A DNA stretch of 64,000 nucleotides from a virus (Duplodnaviria; Caudoviricetes). A model generated the notes under the pieces. That model had not been told where the DNA came from and ran no database searches. It was given only the letters and a program-made list of their open reading frames with translations. Numbering within the stretch: position 1 is the first letter of the stretch; every line of letters begins with the position of its first letter. Below are positions 3,192 to 24,869 of the stretch, one piece after another. Where the stretch lies: the IMG/VR virus record IMGVR_UViG_3300028797_000128, positions 32,001-96,000 of that record; one strand, 5' to 3'. The translations under genes were made by a program, and so were the position numbers.

Positions 3192-3262
3192 GATTCAGCG
3201 GGCTTGTGACCGCCTCCGGCTGCATTACCGCGGGAAAAATCCCGCGTCACTCTGCATTGAAA
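3192..3262 (-). ncRNA. Twister self-cleaving ribozyme, circularly permuted (type P5-like)
   Basis: Minus strand reads GCAGAGUGA-CGCGGGA(UUU)UUCCCGCG-GUAAUGCAGC-CGGAG-GCGGUCACAAGCCCGC: twister core elements UAAUGCAGC, GGUCACAAGCCC and GCAGAGUGA with GUGA/UCAC pseudoknot. Confidence 0.88.
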
Positions 3263-3270
3263 TTTGAATT

Positions 3271-3636
3271 TTATTTGCTGAATTTGAAAGTTGTCACGCT
3301 TTTTACTGCTCCGTCGGGGCGTACACTTGTAACTCTTGTGGGAATATATCCGCAATATGTGTATGATTTGCCCGTAACTTTCACACCCAACCATGCACCA
3401 ATCCATGTCATGTGATTTAAGAACTGCTCCGCTGTTATCTCTGTTGTATCACTTTCAACGGGCTTTTTGCTCCAATTGCCGCCCGTTGTTTTGTGGTATA
3501 ATTCATGTGTTTGTGTAATCGTTCCGCCCGATTCACAAAAGCCTATGATTGATTCTATGCGGATATTGTACTTGCTAAAAGTTTTTGCATACTGTTTGTA
3601 CTGCTCAAAAAGAGCTAAAACCTGATTATTATTCAT
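3271..3636 (-). CDS. Early hypothetical protein
   Basis: ORF track, AAGGAGG RBS. Confidence 0.8.
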   Translation of the reverse strand: MNNNQVLALFEQYKQYAKTFSKYNIRIESIIGFCESGGTITQTHELYHKTTGGNWSKKPVESDTTEITAEQFLNHMTWIGAWLGVKVTGKSYTYCGYIPTRVTSVRPDGAVKSVTTFKFSK

Positions 3637-3729: not shown

Positions 3730-4035
3730 TTATCGGTCATACTCTACAATGTAAAGATATCCGAATCCATCTTTTTCACCGAAAAAATCAAATTCCATAA
3801 TAAAATTGTAGTTGTCTCTTAAGAATATTTGATGTTCATAAGGCTGCATTTTGCATATTTCTGTTGATGTTCTGCTGTTGCTTTTTTGAATCGGATTCAC
3901 AAACTGTTCAAATGAATCCATCCACATATCAAGAGAAATGCCGTGCTTTTCGCAGAACTTTTCACAGTGTTTGTAAAATGCCTCTACGTTCTTAAAATGA
4001 CGGTTTGTCTCTATTTCGTATAACTTCTTTTTCAT
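3730..4035 (-). CDS. First gene of leftward early operon, hypothetical
   Basis: ORF track, AAGGAGG RBS. Confidence 0.8.
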   Translation of the reverse strand: MKKKLYEIETNRHFKNVEAFYKHCEKFCEKHGISLDMWMDSFEQFVNPIQKSNSRTSTEICKMQPYEHQIFLRDNYNFIMEFDFFGEKDGFGYLYIVEYDR

Positions 4036-4149
4036 AGTGAATCCTCCTTAAAATTATTGTTTAATGGTTTGTTTTCGTTTGGTGCTTTTATCGGTATCAT
4101 TGCAACCGATTCAAGCATATTCAAGCGGTCAACTGTATGAGTCAACCGC

Positions 4150-20748: not shown

Positions 20749-21495
20749 ATGTCTTGTGGAATTTATTGTATTGAAAACAAAGTGAATGGCAAAAGGTATG
20801 TTGGGTTAAGTCGTAATATTGAAATCAGATGGAAATCACATAAAAACAGACTTAATTCAGGAAATCATATTAATACTCATTTACAAGCGGCTTGGAATAA
20901 ATATGGTGAAAGTAATTTTGATTTTATTATTATAGAATTATGTTCCGATGATGTCATAAAAGATAGGGAAATTTATTATATTTCTTTATACAAAACGCAA
21001 GATAATCGTTTCGGATATAATCAAACCGCTGGCGGTGATGGTATAAAAAATTTAAATGAGGATTGTGCAGACAAAATTTCTTTAGGCGAAACACTTTACC
21101 CAGTGGTTAAATTAGATTTTGATGGCAACTACATATGCGAATATAGAAATTGTAGATTTGCAGCGGAAGATACTGGATTGTTTACTGAAAATATAAGATA
21201 TTGTTGCGATAAAAAAGGTAAACGCAAAACTACTGGTGGATATATTTGGATGTATAAATCTGATTATGAACAAAACGGGTGCGATGTAGAATACTATAAA
21301 ATTTTAAAAAGAGGAACGCCTGTTAGTCAATTTACAAAAGACGGGCAATATATTGCAACATACATATCAATGCATGAAGCGGAAAGACAAACAGGATGTC
21401 CATTTAAAAACATATCTGCGGTTTGTAATGGGACAAAACATACTTGCATGGGGTATGTATGGAAATTCGCAGATGAAAGCATACTATTAAATTGA
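20749..21495 (+). CDS. GIY-YIG homing endonuclease with NUMOD1-like repeats
   Basis: GIYCIEN...YVGLS; two C-terminal repeats ending GGYIW / MGYVW; AT-rich. Confidence 0.9.
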   Translation: MSCGIYCIENKVNGKRYVGLSRNIEIRWKSHKNRLNSGNHINTHLQAAWNKYGESNFDFIIIELCSDDVIKDREIYYISLYKTQDNRFGYNQTAGGDGIKNLNEDCADKISLGETLYPVVKLDFDGNYICEYRNCRFAAEDTGLFTENIRYCCDKKGKRKTTGGYIWMYKSDYEQNGCDVEYYKILKRGTPVSQFTKDGQYIATYISMHEAERQTGCPFKNISAVCNGTKHTCMGYVWKFADESILLN

Positions 21496-21516: not shown

Positions 21517-21939
21517 GTGATTATATCTGAATCTGTTTGCAAGAAATATGATAGATACGAGGATTTTACATCTGAGTTTGTGCGCACCGCTATGGAGAAT
21601 GGAGTTACGTTCCTCATAGTGAATTGGCAGGATGCGCTTGGCGTGTGTCAGCTGCTTAACGCCTTTACCATTAATGGAAATAGCATTGCTATGCGTGGCG
21701 AGTTCACAGATGAGGCTTATGCAGATATTCAGTGTGTTAAAGAATACGATGGCAACACGCTAATAACATTATTTGATAATGGCGAGATGATTTGCGAAAA
21801 GGCTCTGAATGATGAAACCGCATATGTGGATGACGCTATGTATTTTGTTGAATACAGTGCAAAAGAAGTAGTTCTGCCTTTACACGCAAAGGTTGTACCT
21901 TTCAAGATCGAAACTCAGATTTTTGAGAACGTATTTTGA
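21517..21939 (+). CDS. Hypothetical protein
   Basis: ORF track, AAGGAG RBS. Confidence 0.75.
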   Translation: MIISESVCKKYDRYEDFTSEFVRTAMENGVTFLIVNWQDALGVCQLLNAFTINGNSIAMRGEFTDEAYADIQCVKEYDGNTLITLFDNGEMICEKALNDETAYVDDAMYFVEYSAKEVVLPLHAKVVPFKIETQIFENVF

Positions 21940-21940
21940 T

Positions 21941-22315
21941 TATATAGTCGCAAGTCGGCTTATAATTCTCGCCTAAAGCTGTGGCGAGTAACTAAATGAC
22001 GGAACGGGGCATAGATTAAGCCCCGTATGTGGAAAGCAACTGCAATGATGTTGTAATCTGCACCAAAGCAAATCTCGGAGAACAACTTCACGGTTAAACT
22101 GTTGTCGCAAAATCCGAGGTTTTATGTACCTACCACGCCTCTGTTGTAAGCGTACCACGGTGGGTCTTTAAGACAAAGCTCTTTACGAGCACTTATTAGG
22201 AAAGAGTTTTCAAGCATCTCTTGCATTGTGGTGTCTGTGCGCACAGGTATCGCTTTGATTTTCGTGCTTGAATGCTGCGCATTATGGGATTTAGAGCACA
22301 ATCTAAACTTGCGCA
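21941..22315 (+). ncRNA. Candidate large structured noncoding RNA
   Basis: ~370 nt with no credible ORF and many nested inverted repeats, directly upstream of a tRNA. Confidence 0.55.
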
Positions 22316-22319
22316 TTAT

Positions 22320-22393
22320 GGCAGTTTGGTGAAATGGTATCATATAAGGTTCATACCCTTATGTTCCAAGTTCGACTCTTGGGGCTGCAACCA
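22320..22393 (+). tRNA. tRNA with CAT anticodon (Met/fMet or Ile2)
   Basis: Cloverleaf: D arm GTGA/TCAT, anticodon arm TAAGG-TTCATAC-CCTTA, T arm CCAAG-TTCGACT-CTTGG, encoded CCA. Confidence 0.9.
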
Positions 22394-22419
22394 AGCGTAT
22401 CTTCAACGCTATAAGCATT

Positions 22420-22519
22420 AAAGGCAGATAGAGAGAACCGATCATTCTCTTGACAAGTGTCACCATTCACTTCTGCCTTTACAAGTTTAAAATGGTGAGA
22501 TTGGAAATGGTGCATATGA
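22420..22519 (+). promoter_or_regulatory. Three-way-junction leader with anti-SD loop (copy C)
   Basis: P1 AAAGGCAG/CTGCCTTT; loop TCACCATT complementary to AATGGTGA (22491) and AATGGTG (22506). Confidence 0.65.
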
Positions 22520-23410
22520 ATGTTAGATGTGAGGACACAAGATGTTACGATTATAAGTAATTCTACGGGTGAAGATATTACGGAGCAGTATGCGTTGTTA
22601 ATGACGCAAGATGAGAAAGAAAGAAAAGATAAACAACAAAAAGAAAGAGATAAAAAGACTTATAAAAGATTATGCCAAAACGAAAGAGGGTATTTTACTA
22701 TGATGCTCTACGAGATGAAAAAGGCTTTGGAATTAGGTGTTTCTCAACCGAATGTGACACGATTAATGTATCTCGCAACATACATGGATTATGATAATAT
22801 TTTAAGAGCTGGAAATAATACCTTGATGACTAAAAGAAGTATGCAAAAATGTTTGAGATTAAAAGAAGATACTTTTAGAAACTTTTATAAGGATTGTATA
22901 GATGCAAAACTTATTCAATACAAAGAAGATAAGTATTTTTTGAATCAGTCTATTTTCAAGCGTGGTCGTATAACGCAAGAACAAGCTAAGAACGACAACA
23001 CAATGTTCTTGTATCATAAAGGCATTAGAGAAATTTACGAGAATAGCAAGATTTCAGAGCATAAGATTTTAGGCTATGTATTCTTAGTAATGCCTTATGT
23101 TAATCAAACTTTCAACGTCATTTGTAAAAACCCTAAAGAGGAATCATTTCAAGAAATGGAATGTTTAGATTGGAATGATGTTGGAGATATACTTCAAATA
23201 AATGCTATTCGTAATTTAAAAATGAAATTCAAAAGATTCACTGTTGGTGGACAATATGTTTTTGTTGACGCATCTACTGATAGTAAATCCTTTATATTTG
23301 TGAATCCTCAAATTTATTATACTGGCAAAAATTGGGAACAGGTAGAATGGATAGAAGGGGTTTGTTCTTCGTCTCAGTTGGAACGGAAGGGCGAAATTCA
23401 CAGCACATAA
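22520..23410 (+). CDS. Putative winged-helix DNA-binding protein (RepL-like)
   Basis: Two repeats ending YFLNQSIF / IFVNPQIYY; family assignment is from recall only. Confidence 0.5.
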   Translation: MLDVRTQDVTIISNSTGEDITEQYALLMTQDEKERKDKQQKERDKKTYKRLCQNERGYFTMMLYEMKKALELGVSQPNVTRLMYLATYMDYDNILRAGNNTLMTKRSMQKCLRLKEDTFRNFYKDCIDAKLIQYKEDKYFLNQSIFKRGRITQEQAKNDNTMFLYHKGIREIYENSKISEHKILGYVFLVMPYVNQTFNVICKNPKEESFQEMECLDWNDVGDILQINAIRNLKMKFKRFTVGGQYVFVDASTDSKSFIFVNPQIYYTGKNWEQVEWIEGVCSSSQLERKGEIHST

Positions 23411-23524
23411 GCTATACGTTGATATATAGGCAAATACAAAGATTTTTGCAAACCGAAAAAAGTCAACATAATGACATACTTTTTCGGAAAATAATTAACA
23501 AAACGAGCGTAAGGAGATGATTGA

Positions 23525-24553
23525 ATGGAAGGCAGATCGACGGTCTATAATAAGATTACAAGTGATGAAAAGATTAAGCAGATCAACCCCGAAAACGCTC
23601 AGTTGAGCAAAGACTTTCTTGATTACCTTGCTTCAATTGACAGAAGTCCTAAGACTATTTTTGCATATAATTCTGACCTTGAAATATTCTTTGTTTGGAA
23701 CTTAGAAGAAAATGCCAACAAGGATTTTATAAAGATTAGTAAACGTGACTTTGCGAGATTTCAGAATCACGCTCTCAATGTGTGGAAATGGAGTCCTCGT
23801 AGGATAAGGCGAGTTAAATCTACAATTTCTTCTCTTAGCAACTATATCATGAATATGCTCGACGAAGAAGAAGGGTATGAAGATTATCGCAGTATTATTA
23901 AGAAGATTGAATCTCCCGCAAATGAGGCTGTTAGAGAAAAGACTGTGCTTTCTACAGAACAGGTGCAGAGGTTGCTTGATGAACTTGTAAAGCGTGAAGA
24001 ATACGATAGAGCTGTTTGTATTGCAATTCTCGCTTATTCGGGTATGCGTAAGGCGGAACTGCTTCAAATGAAAATGGAATACTTTAACGCAGACCACTTA
24101 GAGTTTGGCTGCCTTTATAAAACAGATAAGGTGAGAGCCAAAGGTTGTGGTGTGCGCGGCAAACAGATAAACAAGTATGTAATGAATAAAGTTGATACCT
24201 ATATGGATTTATGGCGCAAGAAGCGTGAAGAATTAGGTATTGACAGCGAGTGGGTTCTTGTTATAAAGCGTGGTGACGTTTGGGAGCAGAGAACGGATAT
24301 TGAGAGTTGGAAAGATGAGTTTACTCAGATTCTCGGTTGCCCGTTCTATTTTCATGCCCTTAGGCACGCATTGTGTACTGAGCTTGTTCAAATGAACATA
24401 CCGTCAGAAGTTATAAAAGAATTTTTCAAATGGGAGTCTGTAGAAATGATTAGCCATTACAATGATGCTTCTGCGGCTGATGACTTTGGTAAATACTTTA
24501 GTGCAGATGGCATTATACAGCAAGAAAATAAGGGTATTGCTGATATAAAATAG
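23525..24553 (+). CDS. Tyrosine recombinase
   Basis: YSGMRKAEL (R), HALRH, C-terminal HY (catalytic Tyr). Confidence 0.93.
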   Translation: MEGRSTVYNKITSDEKIKQINPENAQLSKDFLDYLASIDRSPKTIFAYNSDLEIFFVWNLEENANKDFIKISKRDFARFQNHALNVWKWSPRRIRRVKSTISSLSNYIMNMLDEEEGYEDYRSIIKKIESPANEAVREKTVLSTEQVQRLLDELVKREEYDRAVCIAILAYSGMRKAELLQMKMEYFNADHLEFGCLYKTDKVRAKGCGVRGKQINKYVMNKVDTYMDLWRKKREELGIDSEWVLVIKRGDVWEQRTDIESWKDEFTQILGCPFYFHALRHALCTELVQMNIPSEVIKEFFKWESVEMISHYNDASAADDFGKYFSADGIIQQENKGIADIK

Positions 24554-24597
24554 AACCCACATTTTATTAGAAATCTACAAATCATATATTCCTCCTT

Positions 24598-24618
24598 GCC
24601 CTCTTTGAGAGGGCTTTT
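24598..24618 (+). terminator. Intrinsic terminator
   Basis: GCCCTCT-TTG-AGAGGGC-TTTT. Confidence 0.7.
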
Positions 24619-24677
24619 GTGTTGTCTGACTGCGATGATGTTGGACGGCGCACCAATACTATGAAAAGAGGAAAGAT

Positions 24678-24869
24678 ATGCCAATATATAATTATGTTTG
24701 CCCAAACTGCGATAATAAGTTTGAGACAGACAAGAAAATAAGTGAGTATAATCCTCATGAATTATGCCCTAAATGTGGAGAACCTGCAAATAGGAATATG
24801 ACCAAGAACTATTGCAATGGCAACTACGTTGTGAAATGCGATGGGTTCTATGGAAAAACATCAAAGTGA
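24678..24869 (+). CDS. FmdB-family zinc-ribbon protein
   Basis: MPIYNYVCPNC...CPKCG...GFY. Confidence 0.88.
   Translation: MPIYNYVCPNCDNKFETDKKISEYNPHELCPKCGEPANRNMTKNYCNGNYVVKCDGFYGKTSK

What the first reader, a model, noticed from the sequence alone, without database searches (positions are those of the whole stretch)
21941..22315. ~370-nt highly structured ORF-free region directly upstream of the tRNA
Seen: successive and nested helices (CTCGCC/GGCGAG, ACGGGGC/GCCCCGT, CTCGGA/TCCGAG, TCAAGCA/TGCTTGA, GGTGTCTGTG/CACAGGTATC, GCGCA/TGCGC) in a gene-dense genome where such a gap is unusual. Known: large ornate ncRNAs such as GOLLD and ROOL occur in Firmicutes phages next to tRNA genes. Inference: a large ncRNA, either a divergent or short member of those classes or a new one, released by tRNA 5' processing.
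Basis: partly seen in the sequence, partly recalled or inferred. Interest (0 to 1): 0.7.

Follow-up and report, generated by a model that had tools for sequence, protein, structure and literature searches.

The report
Phage tRNA-locus array of small RNAs
The 380-base gene-free stretch before the tRNA of this rumen phage is not one giant RNA but a string of small, swappable folded RNA units. They include a tRNA-stem mimic ending in CCA and a look-alike of the RNA antidote to the bacterial AbiF suicide nuclease, so it may help the phage disarm host defences.

Summary
No GOLLD, ROOL or other large-RNA model matches, even at E<=10.

About 20 related phage contigs carry, at the same site, a mosaic of tRNA genes and shuffled 20-70-nt modules. 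The borders fall exactly at tRNA 5' ends and at CCA 3' ends.

Three modules show covariation:
- A 12-bp acceptor/T-arm-like minihelix ending in A-CCA (22029-22065). Two more copies lie in 5'UTR-like gaps of the window.
- A hairpin with the architecture of the abiF antitoxin motif (22129-22165). It scores 28 bits, below the Rfam cut-off of 37.
- A leader stem flush against the tRNA.

The phage has no AbiF (Abi_2) gene. Canonical abiF motifs are common in viral contigs, often abut tRNAs, and almost never sit near an AbiF gene.

Best reading: a co-processed small-RNA cassette array. Its counter-defence role is inferred, not shown, and expression is untested. This scan reached similar readings on at least eight other phage genomes. 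Verdict: a new variant of a known kind.

The parts
21946..21960 (+). Hairpin U1 (AGTCG / CGGCT), directly after the stop codon of the 140-aa ORF
   Evidence: Sequence. A hairpin sits at the same place in relatives with U-G to U-A changes, read by eye. Function unknown.
21968..21988 (+). Hairpin U2 (CTCGCC / GGCGAG)
   Evidence: In the MFE fold. At the syntenic position relatives carry six different, fully complementary stems: CTTCCC/GGGAAG, CTGCC/GGCAG, CTTGCG/CGCAAG, AGCACG/CGTGCT, AGCGCG/CGCGCT.
22004..22026 (+). Hairpin U3 (ACGGGGC / GCCCCGT), the 5' leader hairpin, followed by AU and then G+1 of the minihelix
   Evidence: In the MFE fold. Relatives have a different complementary hairpin here, often with a GAAA loop, followed directly by a minihelix or by tRNA-Asn. 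Metagenome contigs switch sequence at 22027/22028.
22029..22065 (+). tRNA acceptor/T-arm-like minihelix: 12 stacked positions (2x2 mismatch in this copy), 9-nt loop UGCAAUGAU, discriminator A, encoded CCA
   Evidence: Family of 14 copies in related arrays. In 10 aligned copies, 9 of 12 pairs show compensatory change, and G1-C72, U2.G71 and CCA are invariant (A73 in 9 of 10). Model R1 scores 59.6 bits here. Contigs break right after the CCA at 22065.
22070..22122 (+). Long hairpin (AAAUCUCGGA / UCCGAGGUUU closing stem with an inner hairpin)
   Evidence: MFE fold. Only one other copy is known (L006), and it has an uncompensated mismatch, so support is weak. A metagenome contig skips 22067-22128, so it is a separable cassette.
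22129..22165 (+). abiF-motif-like hairpin: 6-bp stem, bulged A, 3-bp inner stem, 11-nt loop beginning CUCU, 6-nt 3' bulge UACCAC, closing U
   Evidence: Rfam RF03085 gives 28.1 bits (cut-off 37), E = 0.011 in 1 kb and 2.8e-4 in the whole phage, where it is the only abiF match reported at E<=1. Across 12 variants, 100% of cells pair and 5 of 9 pairs show compensatory change. Model R2 gives 57 bits.
22178..22190 (+). Small hairpin GCUC-UUUAC-GAGC
   Evidence: In the MFE fold. The same sequence follows the abiF-like unit in L007, L009, L037 and L031. It is conserved but does not covary.
22209..22272 (+). Large hairpin: 9-bp closing stem, conserved internal loops (UCUCUUG.. / UUGAUUUUCG), and an inner 10-11-bp stem at 22228-22253 followed by a U-rich run (terminator-like)
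   Evidence: W, L037 and L003 give the same predicted fold although most inner-stem positions differ between W and L003. The inner stem was flagged as terminator-like.
22274..22319 (+). Leader Y: palindrome UGCGCA twice (22276-22281 and 22310-22315) pairing as P1 around an inner hairpin; its UUAU tail abuts tRNA position +1
   Evidence: Found before tRNA-Met, -Asn and -Glu, or before a tRNA-like unit, in 13 arrays. P1 is 93.6% paired and 2 of 6 pairs show compensatory change (UGCACA/GUGCA; UGCGUA/UACGCA).
22320..22393 (+). tRNA-Met (CAU) with encoded CCA and a G1.A72 mismatch
   Evidence: ARAGORN. Rfam tRNA 45.9 bits, with pair 1-72 flagged as non-canonical.
22394..22410 (+). Trailer hairpin AGCGU-AUCUUCA-ACGCU, directly after the CCA
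   Evidence: Conserved after a tRNA or a minihelix in L003, L005, L028, L036 and L037. It forms the right-hand junction of the L028 deletion.
24615..24655 (+). Second minihelix copy, preceded by a terminator-like hairpin plus UUUU and followed by the RBS of a small zinc-ribbon ORF
   Evidence: R1 gives 50.1 bits. Sequence.
4080..4120 (-). Third, weaker minihelix copy in the 5'UTR-like gap before the minus-strand gene 3730-4035
   Evidence: R1 gives 25.5 bits, E = 7e-5 per genome. Sequence: same loop UGCAAUGAU and the same A-CCA end.
20749..21495 (+). Free-standing GIY-YIG homing endonuclease gene, one ORF upstream of the array
   Evidence: Pfam GIY-YIG 1.1e-12 and PHROG homing endonuclease 4.8e-30. 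The relatives' upstream ORF sizes include none matching it.

Best explanation
The gap is the variable RNA-gene island of an SPbeta-like rumen phage. It is a head-to-tail array of small structured RNA cassettes on the + strand, and the tRNA-Met is only one of them. In order, the units are: three leader or insulator hairpins; a tRNA acceptor/T-arm-like minihelix with an encoded CCA; a long hairpin; a hairpin built like the abiF antitoxin RNA motif; a small hairpin; a large hairpin with a terminator-like core; a leader stem flush with the tRNA; and the tRNA itself.

Shown here: each well-sampled unit is conserved as a structure, with compensatory changes. The units are shuffled, replaced by tRNAs or deleted among relatives, with borders at tRNA or minihelix 5' ends and CCA 3' ends. 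The phage has no AbiF toxin gene.

Inferred: the array is transcribed as one or a few precursors. Host RNase P (at G+1 of the tRNA and the minihelix) and 3'-end maturation at the CCA cut it into small stable RNAs, so the tRNA-like elements act as punctuation. The abiF-like RNA then acts in trans as a toxin-less antitoxin mimic against AbiF-type HEPN RNases, as pseudo-ToxI does against ToxN. I put this last step at about 0.35. The neighbouring GIY-YIG endonuclease may drive cassette exchange, as SegB does in the T4/T6 tRNA region.
For: Modularity:
- All-against-all BLAST of 10, later about 20, syntenic gaps gives short shuffled blocks.
- The tRNA content differs between relatives: Asn, Glu, Trp, Met or none.
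- L028 equals W minus 22066-22393, joined at a CCA.
- Rumen metagenome contigs break or join at 21939/40, 22027/28, 22065/66, 22124/25, 22319/20 and about 22390.

Structure:
- Minihelix: 9 of 12 pairs compensatory.
- abiF-like hairpin: 5 of 9 pairs compensatory, 100% paired.
- Leader P1: 2 of 6 pairs compensatory.
- Large hairpin: same fold in three divergent copies.
- G-U pairs fit the + strand only.

abiF likeness:
- Same helix, bulge and loop lengths, and the same conserved CC..CCA.GCCUCU..GC..A...CGG..GGU letters.
- It is the only abiF match reported at E<=1 in each of 5 phage records, always at this locus.

Toxin absent: no Abi_2 gene in this phage or in 4 relatives.

Generality:
- Cyanophage S-CREM1 has a bona fide abiF RNA between tRNA-Asn and tRNA-Gly, near a GIY-YIG gene, and no Abi_2 gene.
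- The canonical abiF core occurs in more than 120 viral contigs. Of 80 fetched, 21 have a same-strand tRNA within 400 nt, often 14-22 nt away.
- Abi_2 is present in 3 of 50 of those records, and in 0 of 9 that are at least 90% complete.

Precedents:
- The abiF RNA RCd22 binds and neutralises AbiF in trans (PMC12373285).
- Pseudo-ToxI of phage phiTE (PMC3475682).
- SegB, tRNA regions and anti-defence loci (PMC2330249, PMC13096335).
Against: - There is no expression or RNA-end data. No RNA run was listed and only contigs could be laid.
- The abiF match is below Rfam's gathering score. Its 3' bulge (UACCAC, or GACUAC in relatives) differs from the canonical CAAAUC, the region reported to contact and inhibit AbiF (PMC12737573).
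- My model of the phage variant does not find the S-CREM1 copy.
- No cognate host system was found. In 151 genomes of the order of the one MAG that holds this phage family, the variant occurs only on that MAG's two phage-like contigs. The 9 genomes with Abi_2 genes show no abiF-type RNA beside them.
- A strict pattern scan of 185,579 species genomes found the variant only in that MAG.
- The long hairpin has only two copies and one uncompensated mismatch.
- RNase P cleavage of the minihelix is assumed, not tested.
- A terminator-like stem inside the array could split it into separate transcripts.
Confidence: 0.6

Rival explanations
1. The hairpins are purely cis-acting parts of a tRNA operon: leaders, insulators, terminators and processing signals that ensure correct tRNA and mRNA maturation. 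They have no trans-acting role, and the abiF resemblance is convergence or chance.
For: - Leader Y always abuts a tRNA or tRNA-like unit.
- Minihelix copies also sit in 5'UTR-like gaps before protein genes, preceded by terminator-like hairpins.
- One inner stem looks like a terminator.
- The abiF score is below the cut-off.
- No cognate host AbiF-RNA pair was found.
Against: - The abiF-like unit matches the motif in every helix, bulge and loop length and in its conserved letters.
- It is the only abiF match reported (E<=1) in each phage record searched.
- Bona fide abiF RNAs occupy the same kind of slot in unrelated phages that lack the toxin.
- A relative carries a 6A RNA above its Rfam cut-off in the same array. 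So at least some cassettes are known free-standing sRNA motifs.
Confidence: 0.25
2. The stretch is decaying debris: scars of lost tRNA genes and recombination junctions left by cassette turnover and homing-endonuclease activity, with no function of its own.
For: - The site turns over quickly and some relatives lack most of it (L028, L002).
- tRNA-like units that ARAGORN does not call, and truncated minihelices, occur in relatives.
- A GIY-YIG gene lies next door.
Against: - Compensatory changes in three module families show selection for pairing.
- The invariant U2.G71, loop and CCA of the minihelix across divergent stems argue for function.
- The same modules recur in contigs from many samples.
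Confidence: 0.08
3. It is one large ornate ncRNA, either a divergent GOLLD/ROOL-type RNA or a new class.
For: - It lies next to a tRNA in a Firmicutes-type phage.
- The MFE fold closes the whole stretch with a long-range stem, and z = -2.95.
Against: - No GOLLD, ROOL or other large-RNA match even at E<=10.
- The modules occur separately, in other orders, and are cleanly deleted in relatives.
- The long-range stem is not conserved.
Confidence: 0.04
4. The gap encodes one or more small proteins, for example the 73-codon minus-strand frame 22122-22343.
For: Open frames of 34-73 codons exist. The 73-codon frame is also open in the 95%-identical L037.
Against: - That frame overlaps the tRNA gene.
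- No PHROG match.
- Substitutions are not codon-periodic, and the frame changes in L003.
- The pattern of variation is base-pair compensation.
Confidence: 0.02

Closest known systems
abiF RNA motif (Rfam RF03085; RCd22 of C. difficile, AbiFr of PbAbiF), the RNA antitoxin of AbiF/Abi_2 HEPN RNases (PMC12373285, PMC12737573)
   Same: Same architecture: 6-bp stem, bulged A, 3-bp inner stem, 11-nt loop starting CUCU, 6-nt 3' bulge, closing U. Many conserved letters are shared. Like most viral copies of the motif, it is toxin-less and sits in a tRNA array.
   Different: It scores 28 bits against a cut-off of 37. The 3' bulge is UACCAC/GACUAC, not CAAAUC, and the loop continues GUU. It is a single copy, with no abiF gene downstream. 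Binding to any AbiF is untested.
abiF RNA in the tRNA/ncRNA array of cyanophage S-CREM1 (OP535465; PMC9964418)
   Same: A small hairpin RNA wedged between tRNA genes on the same strand, with a GIY-YIG endonuclease gene nearby and no Abi_2 gene in the genome.
   Different: That copy passes the Rfam cut-off (51.6 bits per the paper). It comes from an unrelated T4-like phage, and its neighbours are the manA and wcaG motifs. The authors proposed no decoy role.
Pseudo-ToxI of phage phiTE (PMC3475682)
   Same: A phage-encoded non-coding RNA that mimics a type III antitoxin and neutralises an abortive-infection toxin. This is the mechanism proposed here.
   Different: It belongs to a different toxin family (ToxN) and consists of tandem 36-nt repeats. 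Its function was shown experimentally, whereas here function is only inferred.
T4/T6 tRNA gene region with SegB (PMC2330249, PMC13096335) and its stable non-tRNA RNAs, species 1 and 2 (rnaC, rnaD; from my own knowledge)
   Same: A cluster of tRNAs plus small stable non-tRNA RNAs, processed from common precursors. It is associated with a GIY-YIG homing endonuclease and linked to counter-defence.
   Different: No sequence relation was tested. The units here are much shorter and turn over as cassettes. This phage is SPbeta-like, not T4-like.
GOLLD and ROOL large RNAs (PMC5737381)
   Same: Found in phages or prophages of Firmicutes, often near tRNAs.
   Different: Those are single RNAs of about 600-800 nt with conserved multi-stem architecture. 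There is no model match here, and this stretch is modular.
tRNA acceptor-T-arm minihelices and tRNA-like processing signals (for example mascRNA-type punctuation; from my own knowledge)
   Same: A 12-bp coaxial helix, a loop, a discriminator and CCA make up the minimal RNase P and CCA-enzyme substrate. It is placed between functional RNAs or in front of mRNAs.
   Different: The loop is 9 nt (UGCAAUGAU), not a canonical T-loop. The U2.G71 wobble is invariant. Processing has not been shown.

Membership tests
GOLLD / ROOL large ncRNAs | Match to the Rfam covariance model (conserved multi-stem core of several hundred nt) | tested here: not met
   cmscan of the whole window at the gathering score, and of 21700-22700 at E<=10, finds neither family.
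GOLLD / ROOL large ncRNAs | A single contiguous RNA whose parts are co-inherited | tested here: not met
   The modules are shuffled, replaced or deleted independently in relatives and in metagenome contigs.
abiF RNA motif (RF03085) | Secondary structure: 6-bp stem, 1-nt bulge, 3-bp stem, loop, 6-nt 3' internal loop | tested here: met
   cmscan alignment over model positions 1-37. Across 12 variants, 100% of cells pair and 5 of 9 pairs covary.
abiF RNA motif (RF03085) | Score at or above Rfam's gathering cut-off (37 bits) | tested here: not met
   28.1 bits here, 29 bits in L005/L007/L009/L037, and 13.6-21.4 bits for other variants.
abiF RNA motif (RF03085) | Conserved unpaired nucleotides (loop CUCU..., 3' bulge CAAAUC) | tested here: inconclusive
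   The loop CUCU and the flanking GCC/GC are kept. The bulge reads UACCAC or GACUAC, sharing only A2 and C6.
abiF RNA motif (RF03085) | Lies just upstream of an Abi_2/AbiF gene | tested here: not met
   There is no Abi_2 gene in this phage or its relatives. The same is true of 47 of 50 viral records with the canonical motif, so this feature does not define the phage-borne copies.
abiF RNA motif (RF03085) | Binds and neutralises an AbiF toxin | not testable with these tools
   This needs co-expression and pull-down experiments. No cognate host toxin-RNA pair was identified.
Type III antitoxin RNAs of the ToxI type | Tandem array of 34-50-nt repeats upstream of the toxin gene | tested here: not met
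   The hairpin is a single copy, and there is no toxin gene. No repeat finder was run on the gap.
tRNA (RF00005), applied to the 22029-22065 element | Cloverleaf with D and anticodon arms | tested here: not met
   Neither ARAGORN nor the Rfam tRNA model calls it. It is a single 12-bp helix.
tRNA acceptor/T-arm minihelix mimic | About 12 stacked base pairs, a hairpin loop, an unpaired discriminator and a 3' CCA | tested here: met
   14 copies found. In 10 aligned copies, 9 of 12 pairs covary and G1-C72 and CCA are invariant, with A73 in 9 of 10.
tRNA acceptor/T-arm minihelix mimic | Cleaved by RNase P at position +1 | not testable with these tools
   This needs an in vitro RNase P assay or 5'-end mapping.

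The most novel reading that the evidence does not exclude
The locus is an RNA-only counter-defence island. It combines a toxin-less AbiF-antitoxin mimic, CCA-ended acceptor-stem decoys or punctuation elements, and replacement tRNAs. These are carried as cassettes that are exchanged at CCA borders, possibly driven by the adjacent GIY-YIG endonuclease, and are released by the host's own tRNA-processing enzymes. Relatives plug other orphan sRNA motifs (6A, DUF3800-I-like, int-alpA-like) into the same slots. That would make such arrays a general phage toolbox of RNA decoys.
Probability: 0.3. Interest if true: 0.8.

Novelty: new variant of a known kind. Interest (0 to 1): 0.55.

Why it matters
RNA antitoxin mimicry by phages has been shown experimentally for only one system, pseudo-ToxI. 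AbiF is the proposed ancestor of Cas13.

If toxin-less abiF-type RNAs in phage tRNA arrays neutralise AbiF, three things would follow:
- A widespread class of orphan phage RNAs would be explained.
- Non-tRNA units in phage "tRNA islands" would have a function.
- A predictive marker of phage host range against Abi systems would be available.

The CCA-minihelix, which recurs before protein genes, may be a compact natural RNase P-dependent processing or insulation part. All of this can be tested directly with ordinary RNA mapping and toxin co-expression assays.

Tried and rejected
- blastn of the gap against 50,697 phage records: no match.
- Protein-anchored scans for more relatives: the viral collection gave the same 9 contigs, metagenomes added only 2-3, and genome contigs gave none.
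- Scan with the 296-aa downstream ORF: none.
- Sequencing runs: no RNA holder listed. The runs labelled metatranscriptomic are marked as probably DNA and are kept as contigs, so they say nothing about expression, RNA ends or abundance.
- AlphaFold model of the conserved 140-aa ORF upstream of the array: mean pLDDT 42.8, unusable, so no fold search was run.
- Looking for a cognate host system:
  - The Abi_2 gene of the MAG that holds this phage family has an AT-rich upstream region with no abiF-type RNA.
  - Nine Abi_2 loci from 151 genomes of that order have neither the canonical nor the phage-type RNA.
  - Model R2 finds nothing outside the MAG's two phage-like contigs.
- DUF3800 protein genes in this phage and three relatives: none.
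- Minihelix model R1 on 80 unrelated viral loci, S-CREM1, the 162-kb phage locus L046 and the MAG locus L055: its only matches were the three in the window.
- Sigma-70 promoter scan: no site above the shuffle expectation in the gap. A TTGATT-19-TATAAT match at 21936-21966, seen by eye, falls outside the tool's spacing rule and is not conserved.
- Small ORFs in the gap: no PHROG match.

Full report
**What is at the coordinates**

The window is part of a 106-kb viral record. Its large terminase is 43% identical to that of Bacillus SPbeta-type phages. The DNA is held by bovine gut metagenomes.

The flagged stretch, 21940-22319, lies between the stop codon of a conserved 140-aa ORF of unknown function and a tRNA-Met(CAU) gene at 22320-22393. 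All neighbouring genes are on the + strand. One ORF further upstream is a free-standing GIY-YIG homing endonuclease gene (20749-21495).

That fold is moderately better than shuffled sequence: z = -2.95 on the + strand and -2.12 on the - strand. The short open frames in the gap have no PHROG match, one overlaps the tRNA, and differences from the nearest relative are not codon-periodic.

**Not one large RNA**

Rfam finds only the tRNA in this region at gathering scores. At E<=10 the only additional non-trivial match is the 37-nt abiF motif. GOLLD, ROOL and every other large family are absent.

I anchored on the 140-aa ORF to fetch the same site from 9 viral contigs. A motif scan and a metagenome scan added about 10 more. 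Every one has a non-coding gap of 250-1100 nt after that ORF, but the contents differ.

- The tRNAs vary: Asn, Glu, Trp, Met or none.
- All-against-all BLAST gives only short blocks in shuffled combinations.
- One relative (L028) is identical in layout to this window except that 22066-22393 is missing, and the junction falls exactly between a CCA and the trailer hairpin.
- Contigs from four rumen runs, laid on the stretch, switch to other sequence or skip segments at 21939/40, 22027/28, 22065/66, 22124/25, 22319/20 and about 22390.

These breakpoints are the 5' ends of the tRNA and a tRNA-like element, the 3' CCA ends, and the start of the abiF-like unit. A single RNA with long-range architecture would not survive this. 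The long-range closing stem of the MFE fold has no comparative support.

**The modules**

1. *Minihelix, 22029-22065.* It has twelve stacked positions (this copy carries a 2x2 mismatch), a 9-nt loop UGCAAUGAU, an unpaired A and then CCA. A structural search found 14 such elements in the related arrays. In ten aligned copies, 9 of the 12 pairs show changes on both sides. G1-C72, the U2.G71 wobble, most loop positions and the CCA are invariant, and the discriminator is A in 9 of 10. This is the shape of a tRNA acceptor/T-arm minihelix. In some relatives the same slot holds a real tRNA-Asn, or a 76-nt cloverleaf-like unit ending in ACCA that ARAGORN does not call. A covariance model of the minihelix finds two more copies in this window. 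One is at 24615-24655, right after a terminator-like hairpin and just before the ribosome-binding site of a small zinc-ribbon ORF. A weaker one is at 4080-4120 on the minus strand, before an early gene.

2. *abiF-like hairpin, 22129-22165.* Rfam's abiF model aligns end to end: 6-bp stem, bulged A, 3-bp stem, 11-nt loop beginning CUCU, 6-nt 3' bulge and closing U. The score is 28.1 bits against a cut-off of 37. In each of five phage records searched it is the only abiF match reported at E<=1, and it always lies at this locus. E is 2.8e-4 for this genome. Twelve distinct variants carry four unrelated outer stems (CCUACC/GGUGGG, CCUUGC/GCAAGG, CCGCAC/GUGCGG, CUUGAC/GUCAAG). Every cell pairs, and 5 of 9 pairs covary. 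A further variant, CCACAC/GUGUGG, turned up later. One variant lies between tRNA-Gln and tRNA-Ile of an unrelated 162-kb phage.

3. *Leader Y, 22274-22319.* The palindrome UGCGCA occurs twice and pairs around an inner hairpin, and the UUAU tail touches tRNA position +1. In 13 arrays it precedes tRNA-Met, -Asn or -Glu, or a tRNA-like unit such as a minihelix. Two independent compensatory changes support the stem.

4. *Hairpins U2 and U3.* Both occupy fixed positions but have several unrelated, fully complementary stems.

5. *Large hairpin, 22209-22272.* It keeps one fold in three copies although most inner-stem positions differ between W and L003. Its core looks like an intrinsic terminator.

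6. *Long hairpin, 22070-22122.* It has only one other copy, which carries an uncompensated mismatch, so it is weakly supported.

G-U pairs throughout fit the + strand.

**Relation to abiF and the decoy idea**

The abiF motif is the RNA antitoxin of AbiF/Abi_2 HEPN RNases. RCd22 of C. difficile carries two copies, binds AbiF and neutralises it in cis and in trans (PMC12373285). In PbAbiF, a single-stranded bulge of the RNA blocks the RNase (PMC12737573).

Neither this phage nor four relatives encode an Abi_2 protein.

To see whether a toxin-less abiF RNA in a tRNA array is an oddity, I checked bona fide copies. Cyanophage S-CREM1 has one (51.6 bits according to PMC9964418) between tRNA-Asn and tRNA-Gly, near a GIY-YIG gene, and has no Abi_2 gene in its genome.

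A scan for the canonical core found more than 120 viral contigs.
- Most of the 80 fetched have the expected stems.
- 21 of the 80 have a same-strand tRNA within 400 nt, often only 14-22 nt away.
- Only 2 of 36 downstream ORFs are Abi_2.
- Only 3 of 50 records have Abi_2 anywhere, and none of the 9 records that are at least 90% complete do.

So phage-borne abiF RNAs are typically orphans, and a quarter of those examined are embedded among tRNAs. That fits antitoxin mimicry, as demonstrated for pseudo-ToxI of phage phiTE (PMC3475682).

I found no paper in the held library that states this for abiF. Notes of this scan reach the same reading on at least eight other phage genomes. Those notes are not independent evidence, but they show that the pattern recurs.

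**Limits of the decoy reading for this locus**

- The match is below Rfam's threshold.
- The 3' bulge differs from the canonical one, and the bulge is the part said to inhibit the toxin.
- My model of the phage variant does not recognise the S-CREM1 copy.
- I could not find a host partner. A strict pattern scan of 185,579 species genomes hit only one Eubacteriales MAG, on a contig that carries the same phage array. In 151 genomes of that MAG's order, the variant occurs only on two phage-like contigs of that MAG. The Abi_2 genes in 9 of those genomes have no abiF-type RNA nearby.
- The host assignment itself rests on metagenomic binning.

**Other cassettes in relatives**

The same site holds a 6A RNA above its Rfam cut-off (50 against 41.2 bits, directly after an abiF-like unit). 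It also holds a near-threshold DUF3800-I match (43 against 44.2) and a weak int-alpA match (28.8 against 35.8). No DUF3800 gene is present. These are orphan sRNA motifs of unknown function (PMC5737381). They show that the site collects diverse small RNAs.

**Mechanism proposed**

Shown: a modular, structure-conserved array whose borders lie at tRNA-type ends, and no toxin gene.

Inferred:
- The array is transcribed with, or like, the tRNA.
- RNase P cuts at G+1 of the minihelix and the tRNA, and 3' maturation stops at the encoded CCA. The units between them, including the abiF-like hairpin, are thereby released as small RNAs with hairpin-protected ends.
- The minihelix copies in front of protein genes suggest the same element also punctuates mRNAs.
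- The abiF-like RNA may sequester AbiF-type RNases. I put this at about 0.35.
- The GIY-YIG endonuclease next door parallels T4/T6 SegB. SegB sits in the tRNA region, drives its preferential inheritance, and amplifies anti-defence loci (PMC2330249, PMC13096335). It could explain the cassette turnover.

**Verdict**

The structure is real and selected, but it is a cassette array and not a GOLLD/ROOL-like giant RNA. It is best filed as a new variant of a known kind, namely a phage tRNA-locus small-RNA array with a divergent, toxin-less abiF-type hairpin. It also contains an apparently undescribed CCA-minihelix family. Expression, processing and any counter-defence activity remain untested.

Noticed in passing
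window 3198-3256 (-): Type-P5 twister self-cleaving ribozyme, 64.1 bits against a cut-off of 37.6, just downstream of the minus-strand gene 3271-3636 in the early region. With the minihelices, it suggests this phage relies heavily on RNA-level processing of its operons.
   Followed up: no
window 24596-24868 (+): A terminator-like hairpin (GCCCUC.../...GAGGGC plus UUUU) is followed at once by a CCA-minihelix and then by the RBS and a small zinc-ribbon (CxxC...CxxC) ORF of about 69 aa. In several relatives this same unit sits directly in the array after the 140-aa ORF. In this window, therefore, the 296-aa ORF plus tyrosine recombinase (22520-24553) look like an insertion between the two.
   Followed up: partly
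window 22320-22393 (+); also L008:5003-5076: The phage tRNA-Met(CAU) has a conserved G1.A72 mismatch at the top of the acceptor stem. This is reminiscent of the 1-72 mismatch of bacterial initiator tRNAs, but it lacks three G-C pairs in the anticodon stem.
   Followed up: no
L009:4511-4586, L008:4516-4590, L003:4915-4991 (approx.): A cloverleaf-like unit of about 76 nt (7-bp acceptor stem, D-arm GCUU/AAGC with a GG loop, T-like arm with loop UGCAAAU or CGCACAU, ending in ACCA). ARAGORN and Rfam do not call it as tRNA. In L009 it replaces, base for base, the tRNA-Asn of L007.
   Followed up: partly
L005:4595-4646; L039:5331-5441 (-); L052:6361-6436: The same array in relatives holds a 6A RNA (50 bits, cut-off 41.2), a DUF3800-I-like RNA (43 bits, cut-off 44.2) and an int-alpA-like RNA (28.8 bits, cut-off 35.8). 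None has its usual partner gene on the records searched.
   Followed up: partly
Viral-contig loci L061-L140: The canonical abiF motif core occurs in more than 120 IMG/VR contigs. Of 80 fetched, 21 have a same-strand tRNA within 400 nt, and only 3 of 50 records have an Abi_2 gene. Toxin-less abiF RNAs next to tRNAs are therefore a general phage feature.
   Followed up: yes
L052:5508-5542 (approx.): A hairpin (stem CUCUGC/GCAGAG) that combines the phage-type loop CUCUGUU with a canonical-type 3' bulge UCAAAU. It may be an intermediate between the phage variant and the Rfam abiF consensus. Neither model reported it: the Rfam scan covered L052, but R2 was never run on that locus.
   Followed up: no
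L182 (G006:C74:33526-36572): The same Eubacteriales MAG holds a second contig with a related array: a 139-aa ORF, a tRNA-like unit, tRNA-Met, an abiF-like hairpin with stem CCACAC/GUGUGG, a leader and a minihelix. Two phages of this family were binned with one genome.
   Followed up: partly
window 20749-21495 (+): The GIY-YIG/NUMOD homing endonuclease gene appears to be specific to this phage, judged only from ORF sizes. Relatives carry a 115-120-aa ORF (or directly a larger one) before the 140-aa ORF, and none has a 248-aa ORF there.
   Followed up: partly
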